This document shows positions 1-3,380 of a DNA stretch of 3,380 bases, in pieces; the stretch's first letter is position 1, and every line of letters begins with the position of its first letter. The stretch lies in IMG/VR virus record IMGVR_UViG_2695420687_000016; one strand, written 5' to 3'. The position numbers and the translations under genes were made by a program. Source of the stretch: a virus (Duplodnaviria > Heunggongvirae > Uroviricota > Caudoviricetes). The notes below the pieces were generated by a model. The model had not been told where the DNA came from and made no database searches. It was given only the letters and a program-made list of their open reading frames with translations.

Positions 1-237
1 ATGCCAGAGATCAAATCGACGGCGCTGCCACAGGTTCAGACCGGCATTCCTGCGACGCTCTCATATGATTTACTCGCCAGACGCCCGGATCTACAAGCCA
101 TGCGCTGGTATGTTCAGGCATCGCTAAATCAGGTAGATGCAGCACGTGCACTGTTCTATCCGANCTTNGANANNAAANNGTNTTACAATATGATCTACGA
201 AGAAATCCGTAAAAAGAAAGCACAAAACGCATCATAG
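1..237 (+). pseudogene. Fragment of an outer-membrane efflux factor (TolC/NodT/OprM family). OMF-like sequence occupies nt 1-162; the in-frame tail (183-237) does not resemble the family.
   Basis: Translation ...LSYDLLARRPDLQAMRWYVQASLNQVDAARALFYP matches the conserved internal OMF motif (compare OprM/CusC LLxRRPDIxxAEhxLxAAxAxIGxAxAAFFP), which normally sits about 180 aa before the C-terminus. Here the frame ends 25 codons later after ambiguous bases (164-182) with the unrelated tail YNMIYEEIRKKKAQNAS. Family assignment is from memory. Confidence 0.6.
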
Positions 238-278: not shown

Positions 279-315
279 TACCCATAGGTATTTACTTTTT
301 AAATACCTATGGGTA
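279..315. repeat. Perfect 16-bp inverted repeat (tacccataggtattta / taaatacctatgggta) with a 5-nt spacer, followed by T-rich tatccttcttttcat. Candidate + strand intrinsic terminator or protein-binding palindrome.
   Basis: Direct reverse-complement check of 279-294 against 300-315 is perfect. T-rich run at 316-328 on the + strand; A-rich run at 272-276 upstream. Confidence 0.6.
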
Positions 316-501
316 TCCTTCTTTTCATACCAACCCACCCCGCCCCACAGAATGCAGGGCAATACTTCGAGTTACCAGGCAGTGGTCAGGGGTTAAGTAG
401 CCAGCCCGAGGCGTAAGAACATGACGGCAGGGTTCAACTTTAATAACTATGCAGCAGGTTTTTGTTCCGCTACCCCGGCGTTAAGGGGAAATGAGGTCAG
501 C

Positions 502-657
502 ATGGATACTATCGATCTTGGCAACAGCGAATCTCTGGTATGTGGCGTGTTCCCCAACCAGGACGGTACGTTCACCGCAATGACGTATACCAAAAGCAAA
601 ACGTTTAAAACCGAAAATGGTGCCCGTCGCTGGCTGGAAAGAAACTCAGGTGAGTGA
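502..657 (+). CDS. ydfA: Small prophage protein YdfA-like (51 aa), first ORF of the dicB operon.
   Basis: ATG at 502 preceded by GAGG (493-496) at 5 nt; 51 codons, same length as K-12 Qin YdfA; positioned before ydfB-ydfC-dicF-dicB. An alternative upstream ATG at 421 would give 78 aa. Confidence 0.65.
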   Translation: MDTIDLGNSESLVCGVFPNQDGTFTAMTYTKSKTFKTENGARRWLERNSGE

Positions 658-658
658 T

Positions 659-787
659 ATGGATTTTGACACAATCATGGAAAAGGCTTACGAAGAATAC
701 TTCGAAGGCCTTGCCGAAGGCGAAGAAGCTCACAGCTTCAACGAATTTAAACAGGTGCTTTCCAGTTCGGCAAAATCTAACGGCTGA
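659..787 (+). CDS. ydfB: Small acidic prophage protein YdfB-like (42 aa), translationally coupled to ydfA.
   Basis: ATG at 659 lies 1 nt after the ydfA stop (TGA 655-657); AGGTGAG Shine-Dalgarno just upstream; 42 aa (MDFDTIMEKAYEEYFEGLAEGEEAHSFNEFKQVLSSSAKSNG), same length as K-12 YdfB. Below the 60-aa cutoff of the ORF track, found by hand translation. Confidence 0.6.
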   Translation: MDFDTIMEKAYEEYFEGLAEGEEAHSFNEFKQVLSSSAKSNG

Positions 788-816
788 TAAGCGAAACAGC
801 ACCGCGAGGAATCAGT

Positions 817-1035
817 ATGCAGAAACGAGAACCCGTCATCATCGCGCCAGACTATACCGATGATGAACTTTATGAGTGGATGCGCCAGAAAATTAATGCA
901 GCGCAGGATCTGAAATGGGCTAATGAAGCCAGAGCTAAGCAGGCTGAAAATCTGTCCGCTCTGGAGCAGGATATCACCAATCTGGAAAAAGCAGCGGCAT
1001 TAAGCATTGCCAGAATGATTACATACCCGCGTTAA
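817..1035 (+). CDS. ydfC: Small prophage protein YdfC-like (72 aa), predicted helical/coiled-coil.
   Basis: ATG at 817 preceded by GAGGA at 8 nt; 72 aa, same length as K-12 YdfC; sequence (…KINAAQDLKWANEARAKQAENLSALEQDITNLEKAAALSIARM) is heptad-like. Confidence 0.7.
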   Translation: MQKREPVIIAPDYTDDELYEWMRQKINAAQDLKWANEARAKQAENLSALEQDITNLEKAAALSIARMITYPR

Positions 1036-1375
1036 TAGCTAACCAACGAAGCTAAGGTTGGTAATTAAGGAGTTCTCCACGGGTGAGGTGGAGTGCGTGT
1101 GCCGGACACGGGTGAGCATCCGGCACTGACAGTTTACTGAAAGGATATTTCCCTGAAAAGTCAGACCATAACGCGAAAGCGCACGGCGAGGTAGCTGGTT
1201 CATAGATAGCCTGTCGTTAAATTTTCGTCGACCGTGCGCTTCCGGTTGTGGCACTCCGCGAAATGGCGCGGCGGTAAGTATGGCGGGGTTATTCCTTCCC
1301 CGTTGAGGACACCGGGTTGTCAGGTTGACCATACGCTTAAGTGACAACCCCGCTGCAACGCCCTCTGTTATCAAT
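1036..1375 (+). promoter_or_regulatory. About 340-nt untranslated, GC-rich, hairpin-dense leader between ydfC and dicF; presumed precursor/processing region of the dicF transcript.
   Basis: No credible + strand ORF. Perfect stems at 1099-1106/1119-1126 (gtgccgga/tccggcac), 1177-1186/1232-1241 (aagcgcacgg/ccgtgcgctt) and 1314-1322/1342-1350 (gggttgtca/tgacaaccc). DicF is known to be excised from a polycistronic transcript. Confidence 0.5.
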
Positions 1376-1433
1376 TTTCTGGTGACGTTTGGCGGTATCA
1401 GTTTTACTCCGTGACTGCTCTGCCGCCCTTTTT
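1376..1433 (+). ncRNA. dicF: DicF small regulatory RNA (about 53 nt plus U-tail), the ftsZ-targeting antisense sRNA of the Qin-type dicB operon.
   Basis: Sequence tttctggtgacgtttggcggtatcagttttactccgtgactgctctgccgccc followed by ttttt matches the DicF RNA as I recall it (Rfam DicF family); located immediately upstream of dicB as in K-12. Confidence 0.85.
1391..1433 (+). terminator. Intrinsic terminator forming the 3' end of DicF: GGCGG/CCGCC closing stem with inner stem-loop, then a T5 run.
   Basis: ggcgg (1391-1395) pairs with ccgcc (1423-1427); ttttt at 1429-1433. Confidence 0.6.
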
Positions 1434-1437
1434 AAAG

Positions 1438-1585
1438 TGAATTTTGTGATGTGGTGAATGCGGCTGAGCGCACGCGGAACAGTTAAAACCAAAAACAGTG
1501 TTATGGGTGGATTCTCTGTATCCGGCGTTAATTGTTAACTGGTTAACGTCACCTGGAGGCACCAGGCACCGCATCACAAAATTCA
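1438..1585 (+). promoter_or_regulatory. Long-range inverted repeat able to form a 19-bp RNA duplex (one G-U) bracketing the dicF-dicB spacer; candidate RNase III processing helix or translational control element for dicB.
   Basis: Arm 1438-1456 tgaattttgtgatgtggtg against arm 1567-1585 caccgcatcacaaaattca (reverse complement tgaattttgtgatgcggtg), 18 of 19 identical. The right arm ends 6 nt before the dicB Shine-Dalgarno GAGGA (1591-1595). Confidence 0.5.
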
Positions 1586-1602
1586 TTGTTGAGGACGCGA
1601 TA

Positions 1603-1791
1603 ATGGAAACGTTATTACCAAACGTTAATACGTCTGAAGGTTGTTTTGAAATTGGTGTCACTATCAGCAATCAGATATTTACTGAAGATGCCATTAATAA
1701 AAGAAAACACGAACAGGAACTGCTAAATAAAATATGCATTGTTTCGATGCTGGCCCGTTTACGTCTGATGCAAACAGGATGCAGGCAATGA
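1603..1791 (+). CDS. dicB: Cell-division inhibitor DicB (62 aa). In K-12 it acts through MinC/ZipA and also blocks ManYZ-dependent phage DNA entry.
   Basis: ATG at 1603 with GAGGA 7 nt upstream; product METLLPNVNTSEGCFEIGVTISNQIFTEDAINKRKHEQELLNKICIVSMLARLRLMQTGCRQ is very close to K-12 DicB as I remember it (MKTLLPNVNTSEGCFEIGVTISNPVFTEDAINKRK...), same length. The longer listed ORF 1498..1791 is an in-frame upstream extension with no better start signal. Confidence 0.85.
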   Translation: METLLPNVNTSEGCFEIGVTISNQIFTEDAINKRKHEQELLNKICIVSMLARLRLMQTGCRQ

Positions 1792-1979
1792 ATACGGCAT
1801 TTGTACTCGTTCTGACTGTTTTGTTTGTTTCTGGTGAACCGATTGATCTTGTTATTGACATACATGACTCAATGGAAGAATGCATGACTGCCGCGGCAGA
1901 GCAAAAAATTCCCGGGAACTGTTATCCTGTCGACAAAGTTATTCGCATGAACAATAACGAAATCCCGGCAGGCCTTTAA
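1788..1979 (+). CDS. ydfD: YdfD-like small membrane protein (63 aa; K-12 YdfD is a lysis-inducing protein), translationally coupled to dicB.
   Basis: ATG 1788-1790 overlaps the dicB stop TGA 1789-1791 (ATGA); 63 aa, same length as K-12 YdfD; N-terminal hydrophobic helix TAFVLVLTVLFVSG. The listed ORF 1734..1979 is an in-frame extension. Confidence 0.7.
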   Translation: MNTAFVLVLTVLFVSGEPIDLVIDIHDSMEECMTAAAEQKIPGNCYPVDKVIRMNNNEIPAGL

Positions 1980-2071: not shown

Positions 2072-2653
2072 ATGAGTAAAGTCTTTATTTGCGCCGCCAT
2101 TCCGGACGAACAGGCAACAGCAGAAGGCGCTAAACCTGTGGCCACTGCCATTGAAGCAGGCGACGAACGCCGGGCAAGAGCCAAATTTAGCTGGTTATTT
2201 CTGGAACAATACCCGGAAGCCCAGGACTGTGCTTATAAATTTCTTGTCTGCGAGGATAAACCCGGCATGGCCCGCCCTGCTCTCGATTCCTGGGATTCCG
2301 AATATATGCAGGAAAACCGCTGGAATGAGGAGTCGGCTTCCTTTGTTCCGGTCGACCCTGAACCGGATACAGAAACTGTTAACTTTAATCAGTTATCTGA
2401 AGACAAGCGGGCTGCTGTCCTTGTCAGGTTCGGTACACATGAAAATATCACCGTGGATATGGTCATCAATGCAAGCGGGCTTCTCGGCGATGACGAGATG
2501 ACGACTTTTGATGGACACCTCACTGAAGCAATTATCAGGACTAAAGAAATTAACGCCATGTATCCTGAGCNNCNNNCTGNGTACATCNNCCCGCTGCCAA
2601 AGGCGTTGACGCCGAGCAATCCGCGCTGGATAATGAGTAGACCATCTCACTGA
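2072..2653 (+). CDS. Hypothetical acidic protein (193 aa; about 32 Asp/Glu against 15 Lys/Arg in the first 165 residues), no family recognised; occupies the ydfE position downstream of ydfD.
   Basis: ATG at 2072 immediately after an in-frame stop, GAGG 9 nt upstream; long ORF with protein-like composition. The C-terminal region crosses ambiguous bases (2571-2588), so the last 30 or so residues are uncertain. Confidence 0.6.
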   Translation: MSKVFICAAIPDEQATAEGAKPVATAIEAGDERRARAKFSWLFLEQYPEAQDCAYKFLVCEDKPGMARPALDSWDSEYMQENRWNEESASFVPVDPEPDTETVNFNQLSEDKRAAVLVRFGTHENITVDMVINASGLLGDDEMTTFDGHLTEAIIRTKEINAMYPEXXXXYIXPLPKALTPSNPRWIMSRPSH

Positions 2654-2684
2654 TTGACATATCACGTTCAGGGCGCATATTCAG

Positions 2685-3380
2685 ATGTCCATATATAAAA
2701 TTCCTCTCCCGCTCAATATTCTGGAAGCAGCGCAAGACCGTATCACCTGGACACTCAATACCCTGCCTCGCGTATGCGTGTCTTTTTCTGGCGGTAAAGA
2801 TTCTGGTTTAATGCTCCATCTGACCGCGGAACTGGCGAGAAAACTCAATAAAAAAATTTATATTTTATTCATCGATTGGGAAGCGCAGTTTACCTACACC
2901 ATCGACTATGTCCAGTCTCTACGGAAACAATATGCCGACGTCACTGAAGCGTTTTACTGGGTAGCGCTGCCATTAACAACGCAAAATTCGCTTTCCCAAT
3001 ATCAACCAGAATGGCAATGTTGGGAACCGGGTATTGAATGGGTGCGTCAGCCACCAAAAGACGCAATAACCGATCCTGAATTTTTCTCGTTTTATCAACC
3101 CGGAATGACCTTCGAACAATTCGTGCGTGAATTTGCCGATTGGTTTTCGCAAAAACGTCCGGCAGCGATGATGATCGGCATCCGCGCTGATGAGTCCTAT
3201 AACCGTTTTGTCGCCATCGCCAGTTTAAATAAACAGCGTTTTGCCGACGATAAGCCCTGGACTACTGCTGCGCCAGGCGGACACAGTTGGTACGTTTACC
3301 CCATCTACGACTGGAAAGTTTACCTGGTGCAAATAGTACGCCTGCCTGCTGGAATAGCTCGGTCGCTTCGATGGTGGTAG
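2685..3380 (+). CDS. PP-loop ATP-pyrophosphatase / PAPS-reductase-like protein (YbdN/IbrA-like, DUF3440-type), 231 aa as read; likely truncated or disrupted near its 3' end compared with the roughly 400-aa family.
   Basis: Canonical PP-loop motif SFSGGKDS (SGGKDS encoded at nt 2787-2804); downstream family-like blocks (IDWEAQF, MIGIRADES, PIYDWK). ORF ends at TAG 3378-3380 with a tail (VYLVQIVRLPAGIARSLRWW) that does not resemble what normally follows the DW motif. Confidence 0.75.
   Translation: MSIYKIPLPLNILEAAQDRITWTLNTLPRVCVSFSGGKDSGLMLHLTAELARKLNKKIYILFIDWEAQFTYTIDYVQSLRKQYADVTEAFYWVALPLTTQNSLSQYQPEWQCWEPGIEWVRQPPKDAITDPEFFSFYQPGMTFEQFVREFADWFSQKRPAAMMIGIRADESYNRFVAIASLNKQRFADDKPWTTAAPGGHSWYVYPIYDWKVYLVQIVRLPAGIARSLRWW

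What the first reader, a model, noticed from the sequence alone, without database searches (positions are those of the whole stretch)
502..1035. Three tightly coupled micro-proteins (51, 42 and 72 aa) of unknown function lead the dicF-dicB toxin operon
ydfA and ydfB are separated by 1 nt and ydfC follows after 29 nt, each with its own Shine-Dalgarno. All are very small; YdfB is acidic and YdfC is coiled-coil-like. They are co-transcribed with two known host-targeting effectors (DicF, DicB), which makes them candidates for further host-interaction, regulatory or antidote-like roles that have not, to my knowledge, been assigned.
Basis: partly seen in the sequence, partly recalled or inferred. 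Interest (0 to 1): 0.45.

Follow-up and report, generated by a model that had tools for sequence, protein, structure and literature searches.

The report
Known unknown small genes ydfA, ydfB, ydfC
These are the already catalogued prophage genes ydfA, ydfB and ydfC: real, conserved small-protein genes at the start of a phage early operon, still without a known function, and showing no sign of being antidotes to the neighbouring toxins.

Summary
ydfA (502-657), ydfB (659-787) and ydfC (817-1035) sit 1 nt and 29 nt apart, each with a Shine-Dalgarno match, upstream of dicF, dicB and ydfD. They are the annotated E. coli K-12 Qin genes b1571-b1573, which the literature still calls function unknown as late as 2024.

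What I added:
- **Real genes.** The ORFs are intact in about 98% of 180-230 related loci. Pooled dN/dS is 0.16, 0.31 and 0.26, as low as or lower than dicB (0.42) and ydfD (0.31).
- **Two separable modules.**
  - YdfA is a small three-strand-plus-helix domain that is also found in Rac as YdaF. It is always closely followed or preceded by an interchangeable small partner gene.
  - YdfC is a conserved N-terminal peptide followed by one long coiled-coil helix. It belongs to a broad family, phrog_1744. In distant members, the gene is the first ORF after a CI-type repressor, in prophages that lack dicF and dicB.
- **No link to the toxins.** Variation in ydfABC does not track variation in dicB or ydfD. 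Published induction data show the three genes neither cause toxicity nor relieve it.

The most likely role is immediate-early, protein-binding accessory factors; this is inferred, not shown. Verdict: already known, modest interest.

The parts
279..315 (.). 16-bp-arm inverted repeat just downstream of the repressor gene end (stop at 235-237). It is either the repressor gene's terminator or an operator overlapping the early-left promoter (possible -35 TTTACT and -10 TATCCT by eye).
   Evidence: Listed as terminator-like. Its position matches the Rac TTGACA/TATAGT promoter region in the alignment. The promoter assignment is inference.
326..491 (+). Conserved non-coding leader between the promoter region and the first early-left gene. 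Only its last ~45 nt, including the ydfA SD, are shared with K-12 Qin.
   Evidence: A leader hit was found in 235 of 243 loci, though in about 84 of them only the last ~38 nt match; the near-full-length copies (75 distinct sequence variants) are nearly invariant. It precedes ydfA, an alternative 118-aa module, ydfC directly, or Rac ydaG. No Rfam hit. No folding signal (z=+1.3) and no compensatory pairs.
502..657 (+). ydfA, 51 aa, DUF1391. Predicted three-strand-plus-helix mini-domain.
   Evidence: Pfam PF07151 E=8.8e-28 and phrog_751 E=1.8e-36. AlphaFold pLDDT 78, strands 15-18, 24-27, 32-35, helix 38-49. dN/dS 0.16 over 59 alleles. SD -8.1 kcal/mol.
659..787 (+). ydfB, 42 aa, acidic. Starts 1 nt after the ydfA stop, which suggests translational coupling.
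   Evidence: phrog_2061 E=2.5e-26, no Pfam family. 18 invariant residues in positions 1-29, variable tail. dN/dS 0.31. The 1-nt gap is kept in 179/182 loci. pI 4.2.
817..1035 (+). ydfC, 72 aa. Conserved N-terminal peptide (MQKREPVIIAPDYTDDELYEWM) followed by one long amphipathic helix (15-69).
   Evidence: phrog_1744 E=1.6e-39, no Pfam family. AlphaFold pLDDT 88. dN/dS 0.26 within the 72-aa class; codons 26-72 reach 0.64 between classes. 95 clusters of relatives in the exhaustive HMM search.
1377..1428 (+). dicF small RNA with its intrinsic terminator. In K-12, ydfABC-dicF was the longest transcript detected.
   Evidence: Rfam RF00039, 76.7 bits, E=1.9e-16. Literature.
1603..1791 (+). dicB, 62 aa cell-division inhibitor.
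   Evidence: Pfam PF05358 E=4.3e-39 and NCBIfam NF049927.
1788..1979 (+). ydfD, 63 aa lysis protein (DUF1482). Its start overlaps the dicB stop.
   Evidence: Pfam PF07358 E=1.4e-22. Named a lysis protein in the K-12 annotation.
2072..2570 (+). 5' part of the large early-left exonuclease gene (ydfE/exoO type). It is cut off at the N-rich joint at 2571-2588.
   Evidence: phrog_2082 'exonuclease' E=4.8e-88, residues 1-168 of an 823-position profile. Full-length ~820-aa genes are annotated.

Best explanation
ydfA, ydfB and ydfC are genuine small-protein genes. They form the promoter-proximal part of the early-left (PL-type, dicBp) operon in Qin/CP-933P/Tritos-type lambdoid (pro)phages. They are transcribed as soon as the CI/DicA-type repressor is relieved, and they lie upstream of the dicF terminator, so they should be expressed more readily than dicB.

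They are not one unit with the toxins. They are two portable modules:
1. **ydfA plus a partner gene.** YdfA is a 51-aa three-strand-plus-helix domain. Its partner is interchangeable and always close-packed with it: YdfB here, a 125-aa protein in mEp460-type phages, and the UBA-like YdaG in Rac.
2. **ydfC.** This is a member of the broad family phrog_1744. In distant members the gene is the first ORF downstream of the repressor gene, in prophages without dicF or dicB.

Inferred mechanism, not shown: these are non-toxic, protein-binding immediate-early accessory factors.
- YdfC probably forms a coiled-coil oligomer that presents its invariant N-terminal peptide (MxKxEPxIIAxG...ELxxWMxxK) to a conserved partner, while its helix surface evolves quickly.
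- YdfA probably forms a complex with the small protein encoded next to it.
- Their targets would lie in the lysis-lysogeny decision or in host take-over, not in DicB, DicF or YdfD.
For: **Shown here**
- ORFs are intact in about 98% of loci and the spacing is fixed.
- dN/dS is 0.16, 0.31 and 0.26, against 0.42 for dicB and 0.31 for ydfD. Out-of-frame controls give 0.8-4.5. Variable sites are most frequent at third codon positions.
- SD strengths are above the window background.
- The block occurs in phage genome records such as Tritos, between the CI gene and dicF-dicB-ydfD-exonuclease-xis-int.
- 3965 of 5426 complete E. coli genomes carry part of it and 2311 carry the whole block, with up to 8 places per genome.
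- Modularity: 181 loci have ydfA-ydfB-ydfC and 45 have ydfC without ydfA/ydfB. ydfA-ydfB without ydfC occurs in O157. YdfA occurs with alternative adjacent partners.
- YdaG matches the UBA-like domain family UBA_4 above Pfam's cut-off.
- The YdfC family has 95 cluster representatives, all tested members match phrog_1744, and none has a significant Pfam match.
- Remote YdfC relatives are the first ORF after an S24/HTH CI-like repressor in SfIV, Kati, L245, L247 and L249.

**From the literature**
- The promoter is repressed by DicA. ydfABC transcripts appear in stationary phase and ydfABC-dicF was the longest species detected.
- ydfA mRNA is inducible.
- The operon without dicF and dicB is non-toxic.
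Against: - No direct evidence of translation was found. The operon is repressed under the conditions used for published ribosome profiling, and no paper in the library reports the proteins.
- No binding partner is known, and a YdfA-YdfB complex could not be modelled.
- The first ~18 codons of ydfC also have very low synonymous divergence (pS 0.05). Part of the N-terminal conservation within E. coli could therefore reflect recombination or an RNA/DNA-level constraint. Against that, the motif persists in relatives that are only 24-65% identical to one another.
- The dN/dS values are pooled pairwise values over mosaic, non-independent alleles.
- The only reported phenotypes are weak hits in an over-expression screen for oxidant tolerance.
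Confidence: 0.6

Rival explanations
1. Antidote or modulator: one or more of YdfA, YdfB and YdfC tempers DicB, DicF or YdfD toxicity, like an antitoxin.
For: They share an operon and lie upstream of the toxic products. They are small and acidic. An antidote relation does exist inside this operon, since DicB is reported to prevent YdfD lysis.
Against: - With ydfABC intact, induction is still 'extremely toxic', and deleting dicB and dicF alone removes the toxicity.
- There is no co-variation with dicB or ydfD (Mantel r -0.01 to 0.26). Identical YdfC is paired with DicB alleles only 63% identical to the window's.
- dicB occurs without ydfB and ydfC.
- YdfC and YdfA relatives occur without dicB.
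- No PADLOC hit.
Confidence: 0.07
2. Specific lysis-lysogeny regulator. YdfC (or YdfA-YdfB) would be the functional counterpart of a lambda PL-operon regulator in these phages, whose annotated early-left operon has no N gene. Examples would be a CIII-like protector of the CII-equivalent, or a factor or leader-RNA partner that lets transcription read through the dicF terminator to reach exonuclease, xis and int.
For: - The position is promoter-proximal and upstream of the only strong terminator.
- The same position is conserved for distant YdfC relatives.
- No N-like gene is annotated in the Tritos early-left operon.
- In K-12 no transcript extending past dicF was detected, yet an intact phage must express xis and int.
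- Like CIII (my own knowledge), YdfC is a small protein built on an amphipathic helix.
- A highly conserved leader precedes these genes.
Against:
- No arginine-rich N-terminus of the kind N proteins have; all three proteins are acidic.
- The leader shows no structure signal. It is absent from K-12 Qin and occurs without ydfA.
- YdfA and YdfC are separable, so neither is obligatory for the other.
Confidence: 0.15
3. Host take-over or anti-defence factors, such as a restriction-alleviation, RecBCD-inhibiting or DNA-mimic function. This would resemble lambda Ral or Gam, which also sit in the early-left operon.
For: Early-left operons of lambdoid phages typically carry such small accessory genes (established knowledge). 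YdfB is strongly acidic (-7.4 over 42 aa). This operon has a RecE-like exonuclease but no annotated Gam. The YdfC helix evolves quickly (dN/dS 0.64, dN about equal to dS over codons 37-72), as expected in an arms race.
Against: No similarity to any known anti-defence protein in Pfam, PHROGs, PADLOC or the PDB. Expression of ydfABC without dicB did not change lambda-vir plating, although that assay does not test anti-defence. At 42 aa, YdfB is very short for a DNA mimic.
Confidence: 0.13
4. The proteins do not matter. The ORFs would be kept only as a translated 5' segment that protects the transcript from Rho or RNases so that DicF can be made.
For: DicF is processed from the ydfABC-dicF transcript, and RNase E and RNase III affect stability of the ydfA part. 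Synonymous divergence at the 5' end of ydfC is unusually low.
Against: dN/dS is well below 1 while out-of-frame controls are about 1 or more. Specific residues are invariant. Both families are conserved in loci without dicF (Rac ydaF, SfIV-type ydfC). mEp460-type loci have ydfA but neither ydfB nor ydfC.
Confidence: 0.05

Closest known systems
E. coli K-12 Qin prophage ydfA (b1571), ydfB (b1572), ydfC (b1573)
   Same: Same genes, same order and same spacing. Protein identity to K-12 is 96%, 93% and 100%. The downstream dicF-dicB-ydfD layout is the same.
   Different: The window comes from a different Qin-like prophage. It has a 139-aa CI-like repressor upstream instead of DicA, a ~165-nt conserved leader that K-12 lacks, and more divergent DicB (87%) and YdfD (73%). 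All five proteins are identical to IMG/VR locus L020.
Rac prophage ydaG-ydaF, upstream of the kilS small RNA and kilR
   Same: YdaF is a DUF1391 protein 82% identical to YdfA in the alignment. [quoted passage not shown] That is the same overall layout as Qin.
   Different: The partner (YdaG, UBA-like) lies upstream of the YdfA-type gene and is unrelated to YdfB. There is no YdfC. sieB is inserted on the opposite strand.
phrog_1744 family, including an unannotated ORF in Shigella phage SfIV and CDS0003 of phage Kati
   Same: Same architecture as YdfC: the N-terminal MxKxEPxIIAxG motif, ELxxWMxxK, then a long helix. Identity to the window's YdfC is 39-41%. The gene lies on the same strand as the CI-type repressor gene and directly downstream of it.
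   Different: These prophages have no ydfA/ydfB, dicF or dicB. Some members carry extra C-terminal domains of unknown function (130-193 aa). Many have a D/G-P-x-x-H/L tail motif that E. coli YdfC lacks.
Small accessory proteins of the phage lambda PL operon (N, Ral, CIII, Kil, Gam)
   Same: Works-like comparison only: small proteins made early from the repressor-controlled leftward promoter that act by binding host or phage proteins (established knowledge). DicB is the functional analogue of Kil.
   Different: No sequence relation was found (for CIII; Pfam and PHROGs name none). There is no arginine-rich motif as in N. No activity has been tested.
AP2/ERF-type and UPF0339 (YegP)-type three-strand-plus-helix mini-domains
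   Same: The YdfA model superposes on the AP2 domains 7et4_A and 2gcc_A at 1.3-1.5 A over 37 residues with 27% identity. It also matches UPF0339 and dsRBD folds.

Membership tests
Pfam DUF1391 (PF07151), for YdfA | Match to the family HMM above the curated gathering score | tested here: met
   96.2 bits against a cut-off of 27.3, E=8.8e-28, full-length match. All 18 aligned relatives match.
PHROG families 751 (YdfA), 2061 (YdfB), 1744 (YdfC) | Significant HMM match over the whole protein | tested here: met
   E=1.8e-36, 2.5e-26 and 1.6e-39. All three families are labelled 'unknown function'.
Toxin-antitoxin-like antidote of DicB/YdfD/DicF | Neutralises the toxin when co-expressed | not testable with these tools
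   Published data argue against it. The Plac-driven operon with ydfABC intact is lethal, and toxicity is removed only by deleting dicB and dicF.
Toxin-antitoxin-like antidote of DicB/YdfD/DicF | Obligate co-occurrence and cognate co-variation with the toxin gene | tested here: not met
   Mantel r between ydfA/B/C and dicB/ydfD is -0.01 to 0.26, against 0.86 for ydfA-ydfB and 0.59 for dicB-ydfD. dicB occurs without ydfB/ydfC, and YdfC or YdfA relatives occur without dicB.
Lambda N-type antiterminator | First gene of the PL operon, upstream of the first terminator | tested here: met
   ydfA, or ydfC in SfIV-type phages, is the first ORF after the repressor gene and lies upstream of the dicF terminator.
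Lambda N-type antiterminator | N-terminal arginine-rich RNA-binding motif; a basic, disordered protein | tested here: not met
   pI is 5.2, 4.2 and 5.0, and no Arg-rich N-terminus is present. Both modelled proteins are folded. No Pfam match to any N family.
Lambda CIII (FtsH inhibitor) | Sequence homology to the CIII amphipathic-helix core | tested here: not met
Lambda CIII (FtsH inhibitor) | Inhibits FtsH and stabilises the CII-type activator | not testable with these tools
   Needs a proteolysis assay or a lysogenisation assay.
Coiled-coil protein, for YdfC | Long helix with a heptad pattern of hydrophobic a/d residues | tested here: met
   Helix 15-69 at pLDDT 88-98. 11 of 15 a/d positions are hydrophobic in the best register. 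The profile matches only natural and designed coiled coils in the PDB. The oligomeric state was not tested.
AP2/ERF-like DNA-binding fold, for YdfA | Significant structural match plus basic DNA-contact residues on the sheet | tested here: inconclusive
EF-hand, for YdfB | Canonical DxDxDG...E calcium-binding loop | tested here: not met
   Only a weak local match to EF-hand 4 of CHP1/p22 (E=0.3-0.5). Loop positions 1 and 6 are Leu and Glu rather than Asp and Gly (by inspection).
Known anti-phage defence proteins (PADLOC) | HMM match to a defence-system component | tested here: not met
   No hits at E<=1 for any of the three proteins or their extended ORFs.

The most novel reading that the evidence does not exclude
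The dark genes next to the early-left promoter, possibly together with the conserved ~165-nt leader, could be the missing early regulators of a large group of enterobacterial lambdoid phages whose annotated early-left operon has no N gene. In this reading:
- YdfC (phrog_1744) would use its invariant N-terminal peptide to dock on a host machine such as RNA polymerase/Nus factors or FtsH. That would control read-through of the dicF terminator or stability of the CII-equivalent.
- YdfA, with its swappable adjacent partner, would act as a small nucleic-acid- or protein-binding adaptor.

If so, this would be a new kind of immediate-early switch component rather than accessory cargo.
Probability: 0.07. 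Interest if true: 0.7.

Novelty: already known. Interest (0 to 1): 0.3.

Why it matters
ydfA, ydfB and ydfC are among the uncharacterized K-12 genes listed in the 2024 y-ome paper. Copies of at least part of the block are present in about three quarters of complete E. coli genomes, with up to eight places per genome, so a function would be widely relevant.

The practical value of this analysis is redirection:
- The three genes should not be studied as appendages of DicB and DicF. They are two separate immediate-early modules of the lambdoid early-left operon.
- YdfC belongs to a much wider family that sits next to CI-type repressor genes.
- YdfA always comes with a small, close-packed partner gene.

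This gives concrete experiments, but it does not overturn anything known.

Tried and rejected
- **PDB sequence searches.**
  - YdfA gave only a 19-residue local match to the lambda/phage 21 head decoration protein (E 0.023). I judged it chance, though it may explain the mis-annotation in some phage records.
  - YdfB gave only non-significant EF-hand-like matches.
  - YdfC gave only coiled coils.
- **PADLOC and NCBIfam.** Nothing useful.
- YdfC against lambda CIII and YdfA against an AP2 domain were both negative.
- **Locating remote YdfC relatives.** tblastn with P0343 in the phage collection found nothing. P0303 in IMG/VR found nothing. The 31-sequence alignment was too diverse for locus scanning. 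P0310 did work.
- **The 78-aa and 56-aa extended ORFs.** Rejected as the true genes.
- **The conserved leader as a structured RNA.** No Rfam hit, z=+1.3 and no covariation. As a boxA-like site, the only resemblance lies in the leader's variable segment (by eye), so I rejected that too.
- **A name coincidence.** The 'ydfA' in an IbfA abortive-infection paper appears from its context to be an unrelated plasmid gene.
- **Positional alternatives to ydfA/ydfB.** The 125-aa, 99/118-aa and zinc-ribbon ORFs are all of unknown function, so they gave no hint by analogy.
Full report
**1. What is in the window**

Positions 180-2570 are the early-left region of a Qin-like lambdoid prophage. In order it contains:
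- the last codons of a CI-like repressor gene;
- an inverted repeat at 279-315;
- a conserved leader;
- ydfA (502-657), ydfB (659-787) and ydfC (817-1035);
- a 340-nt untranslated stretch;
- dicF (1377-1428; Rfam 76.7 bits);
- dicB (1603-1791) and ydfD (1788-1979);
- the 5' part of the large exonuclease gene.

The K-12 annotation shows the same order. Relative to K-12, the window's proteins are 96% (YdfA), 93% (YdfB) and 100% (YdfC) identical, while DicB and YdfD are 87% and 73% identical. All five proteins are identical to IMG/VR locus L020.

The two ends of the window do not belong to the prophage. Positions 1-163 are an internal piece of mdtP. Positions ~2626-3320 are a ybdN-like gene only 82% identical to E. 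coli ybdN. The joints at 164-181 and 2571-2588 are N-rich, and no E. coli genome holds 80% of the window in one place. The window is therefore a chimeric or concatenated sequence. This does not affect the finding.

**2. Checking the observation**

Coordinates, lengths and gaps (1 nt and 29 nt) are exactly as reported.
- Anti-SD pairing is -8.1, -3.9 and -5.9 kcal/mol, against a mean of -2.1 for all ATGs in the window.
- YdfB has pI 4.2 and net charge -7.4.
- YdfC is predicted as a short unstructured N-terminus plus a single helix over 15-69 at high confidence. It has a hydrophobic heptad register and matches only coiled coils in the PDB.
- The longer ORFs listed mechanically (78 aa from ATG421, 56 aa from ATG617) are not the genes. 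The in-frame upstream ATG is missing in about 40% of loci. K-12 has different upstream sequence. ATG617 has no SD.

**3. Are they real genes?**

I collected 243 loci from E. coli genomes, phage records, IMG/VR and GTDB genomes.
- The three ORFs are full-length with a start codon in 191/194, 179/183 and 227/229 loci.
- The 1-nt and 29-nt gaps are kept in 179/182 and 175/182 loci.
- Pooled Nei-Gojobori dN/dS over distinct alleles is 0.16 (ydfA), 0.31 (ydfB) and 0.26 (ydfC, 72-aa class). The experimentally validated neighbours give 0.42 (dicB) and 0.31 (ydfD).
- The same alignments read out of frame give 0.8-4.5.
- Variable sites are most frequent at third codon positions.

These behave as protein-coding genes.

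Caveats: the values are pooled over non-independent mosaic alleles, and I found no direct evidence of translation. Transcripts are documented. The promoter between dicA and ydfA is derepressed 22-fold without DicA. ydfABC and ydfABC-dicF RNAs appear in stationary phase, and no longer species was detected. ydfA mRNA is induced by an ionic liquid.

**4. What is already known**

The genes are annotated in K-12.
[quoted passage not shown] - The 2024 y-ome paper lists all three as uncharacterized.
- Full-text searches found no functional study. They found only over-expression screen hits for oxidant tolerance and an artificial evolution of a YdfC-GFP fusion in yeast.
- None of the papers retrieved describes an individual deletion of the three genes.

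- With ydfABC intact, induction of the operon from Plac is lethal. Deleting dicF and dicB alone restores normal growth and morphology.
- The same dicF/dicB-deleted operon no longer protects against lambda-vir.

At native stoichiometry ydfABC are therefore neither toxic, nor antidotes, nor lambda-exclusion factors.

**5. Two separable modules, not one unit with the toxins**

- Among ydfC-anchored loci, 181 have ydfA-ydfB-ydfC and 45 have ydfC without ydfA/ydfB. In those 45, another module (a 99/118-aa ORF overlapping a 68-aa zinc-ribbon ORF on the other strand) or the leader itself precedes ydfC.
- ydfA-ydfB without ydfC occurs in O157:H7.
- mEp460-type phages have ydfA followed, with overlapping stop and start, by an unrelated 125-aa protein, and then dicB.
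- Rac has ydaG then ydaF. YdaF is DUF1391 and 82% identical to YdfA in the alignment. The pair sits right after racR, followed by the small RNA kilS and the FtsZ inhibitor kilR. Locus L100 combines a ydaG-like gene, ydfA and the 125-aa gene.
- So the YdfA-type gene is the constant element. It is always close-packed with an interchangeable small neighbour (overlapping, or 1 or 10 nt away). One of these, YdaG, matches the UBA-like protein-interaction domain above Pfam's cut-off.
- Distance correlations between alleles confirm two linkage blocks. They are ydfA-ydfB 0.86, ydfA/B-ydfC about 0.6 and dicB-ydfD 0.59. Between ydfABC and dicB/ydfD they are only -0.01 to 0.26.

**6. YdfC belongs to a broad family tied to the repressor-proximal position**

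- The word-indexed search found only Escherichia proteins.
- An exhaustive HMM search with a YdfC profile found 95 cluster representatives (E<=1e-3), 65-193 aa long.
- All those tested match phrog_1744, 'unknown function', and none has a significant Pfam match.
- The shared pattern is MxKxEPxIIAxG, then [ST][ND][DE]ELxxWMxxK, then a long helix with conserved L32, I53 and L56. Some members carry additional C-terminal domains of unknown function.
- In Shigella phage SfIV (where the ORF is not annotated), phage Kati, and IMG/VR loci L245, L247 and L249, the YdfC-like gene is the first ORF downstream of, and on the same strand as, an S24/HTH CI-type repressor. These prophages have no dicF or dicB.
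- Within E. coli, codons 1-25 have dN/dS 0.32 with very low dS, while codons 26-72 reach 0.64, with dN about equal to dS over codons 37-72. This indicates a constrained N-terminal motif and a fast-evolving helix surface. The low dS at the 5' end may partly reflect recombination at the module boundary.

**7. YdfA and YdfB**

- YdfA is modelled as three strands (15-18, 24-27, 32-35) and a helix (38-49), with pLDDT 78.
- YdfB has 18 invariant residues in positions 1-29 and a variable tail. From sequence it looks like an acidic helix-loop-helix; this is inference, as it was not modelled. Its EF-hand-like match is not significant and the loop is not canonical.
- The known range of the YdfA family is Escherichia, Shigella and Salmonella. 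A Cronobacter phage shows a DNA-level match spanning parts of the ydfA-ydfB region. The hits in Collinsella, Veillonella and Nanosynbacter MAGs look like mis-binned contigs.

**8. Most likely mechanism**

Shown:
- The genes are real and constrained, and they sit next to the early-left promoter.
- They are two portable modules, independent of the toxins.
- Published data show they are non-toxic at native expression levels.

Inferred:
- They act by binding other proteins at the immediate-early stage.
- YdfC would be a coiled-coil oligomer displaying a conserved docking peptide.
- YdfA would form a complex with the protein encoded next to it.
- Targets would lie in the lysis-lysogeny decision or in host take-over.

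Among specific versions, I give about 0.15 to a regulatory role (CIII-like protection of the CII-equivalent, or help in reading through the dicF terminator). I give about 0.13 to an anti-defence or take-over role, 0.07 to the antidote idea, and 0.05 to the view that the proteins are irrelevant and only translation of the leader matters.

**9. Novelty and score**

The feature, and the statement that its function is unknown, are already in the literature, so this is 'already known'. The points I did not find in the papers I read are modest:
- the breadth and repressor-proximal position of the YdfC family;
- the partner-swapping of YdfA;
- the lack of co-variation with dicB and ydfD;
- the quantitative evidence of constraint.

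A specialist would not be surprised. The open question becomes somewhat more testable. Interest 0.3.

Noticed in passing
window 1-181 and 2571-3380: The window is chimeric. Positions 1-163 are an internal fragment of mdtP (100% to one E. coli strain, about 90% to others). Positions ~2626-3320 are a ybdN-like PAPS-reductase gene only 82% identical to E. coli ybdN. The joints at 164-181 and 2571-2588 are N-rich. No E. coli genome holds 80% of the window in one place.
   Followed up: yes
window 326-491: A ~165-nt non-coding leader lies between the promoter region and whichever first early-left gene follows (ydfA, an alternative module, ydfC, or Rac ydaG). Its near-full-length copies (75 distinct variants) are nearly invariant; about 84 of the 235 loci with a hit match only the last ~38 nt. 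K-12 Qin keeps only its last ~45 nt. It has no Rfam hit, no folding signal and no covariation. It may be a linear RNA motif or a module-boundary recombination sequence.
   Followed up: partly
window 279-315: A perfect 16-bp-arm inverted repeat (TACCCATAGGTATTTA...TAAATACCTATGGGTA) followed by a T-rich run lies just after the repressor gene. It could be that gene's terminator, or an operator overlapping the early-left promoter.
   Followed up: partly
window 1426-1635: The stretch between dicF and dicB matches the Salmonella small-RNA family STnc100 over its full length, but below the gathering score (38.7 against 47 bits, E=3.7e-6).
   Followed up: no
window 1234-1344 and the equivalent stretch in L006, L092, L099, L100: The stretch upstream of dicF is conserved across prophage types that differ upstream. 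It shows up as the same pseudo-ORF ('VRFRLW..AKWRGGKYGGVIPSPLRTP.CQVDHTLK'). It is probably part of the DicF precursor or processing region rather than a gene.
   Followed up: no
L004 7823-7957 (-), K-12 Rac ydaG: The uncharacterized 44-aa YdaG matches the UBA-like domain family UBA_4 above Pfam's gathering score (24.1 against 21.8 bits, E=3e-5). A UBA-like fold in a phage micro-protein is unusual, and I found no mention of it in the papers searched.
   Followed up: partly
phage records ON470583, ON470580, PV340562 and others (hits H18-H20, H39-H42): 'Head-DNA stabilization protein D' appears among the annotations under the ydfA-containing match in several phage records, and in H39, H40 and H42 it is the only annotation under a match lying within ydfA. 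It probably stems from a 19-residue local similarity to the lambda/phage 21 decoration protein (E=0.023). This looks like a mis-annotation.
   Followed up: partly
L243 6001-6198 (+), Shigella phage SfIV, record positions 28106-28303: An unannotated 66-codon YdfC-family ORF lies directly downstream of the CI-like gene gp37. It partly overlaps the annotated opposite-strand gp36.
   Followed up: partly
L253, L258, L263 at the match position (+0 to +158): A different 52-aa ORF (MDKQEPKIIG.GSSNEELIEETVSEILQKH...) shares only the first ~20 residues with the YdfC family, in the same repressor-proximal position in L253 and L258. This suggests the N-terminal motif, or the DNA encoding it, is itself modular.
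   Followed up: no
loci lacking ydfA/ydfB, about -430 to -70 relative to ydfC (for example L044, L061, L126): In place of ydfA-ydfB there is a 99/118-aa ORF (phrog_21318). It completely overlaps a 66-68-aa CxxC...CxxC zinc-ribbon ORF on the opposite strand. I did not resolve which of the two is the real gene.
   Followed up: partly
L088, L090, L098, L101 (GTDB MAGs labelled Collinsella, Veillonella, Nanosynbacter, Bacillota): Their YdfA matches are 84-100% identical to the E. coli protein, in short contigs. They are almost certainly Escherichia prophage contigs mis-binned into unrelated MAGs.
   Followed up: no
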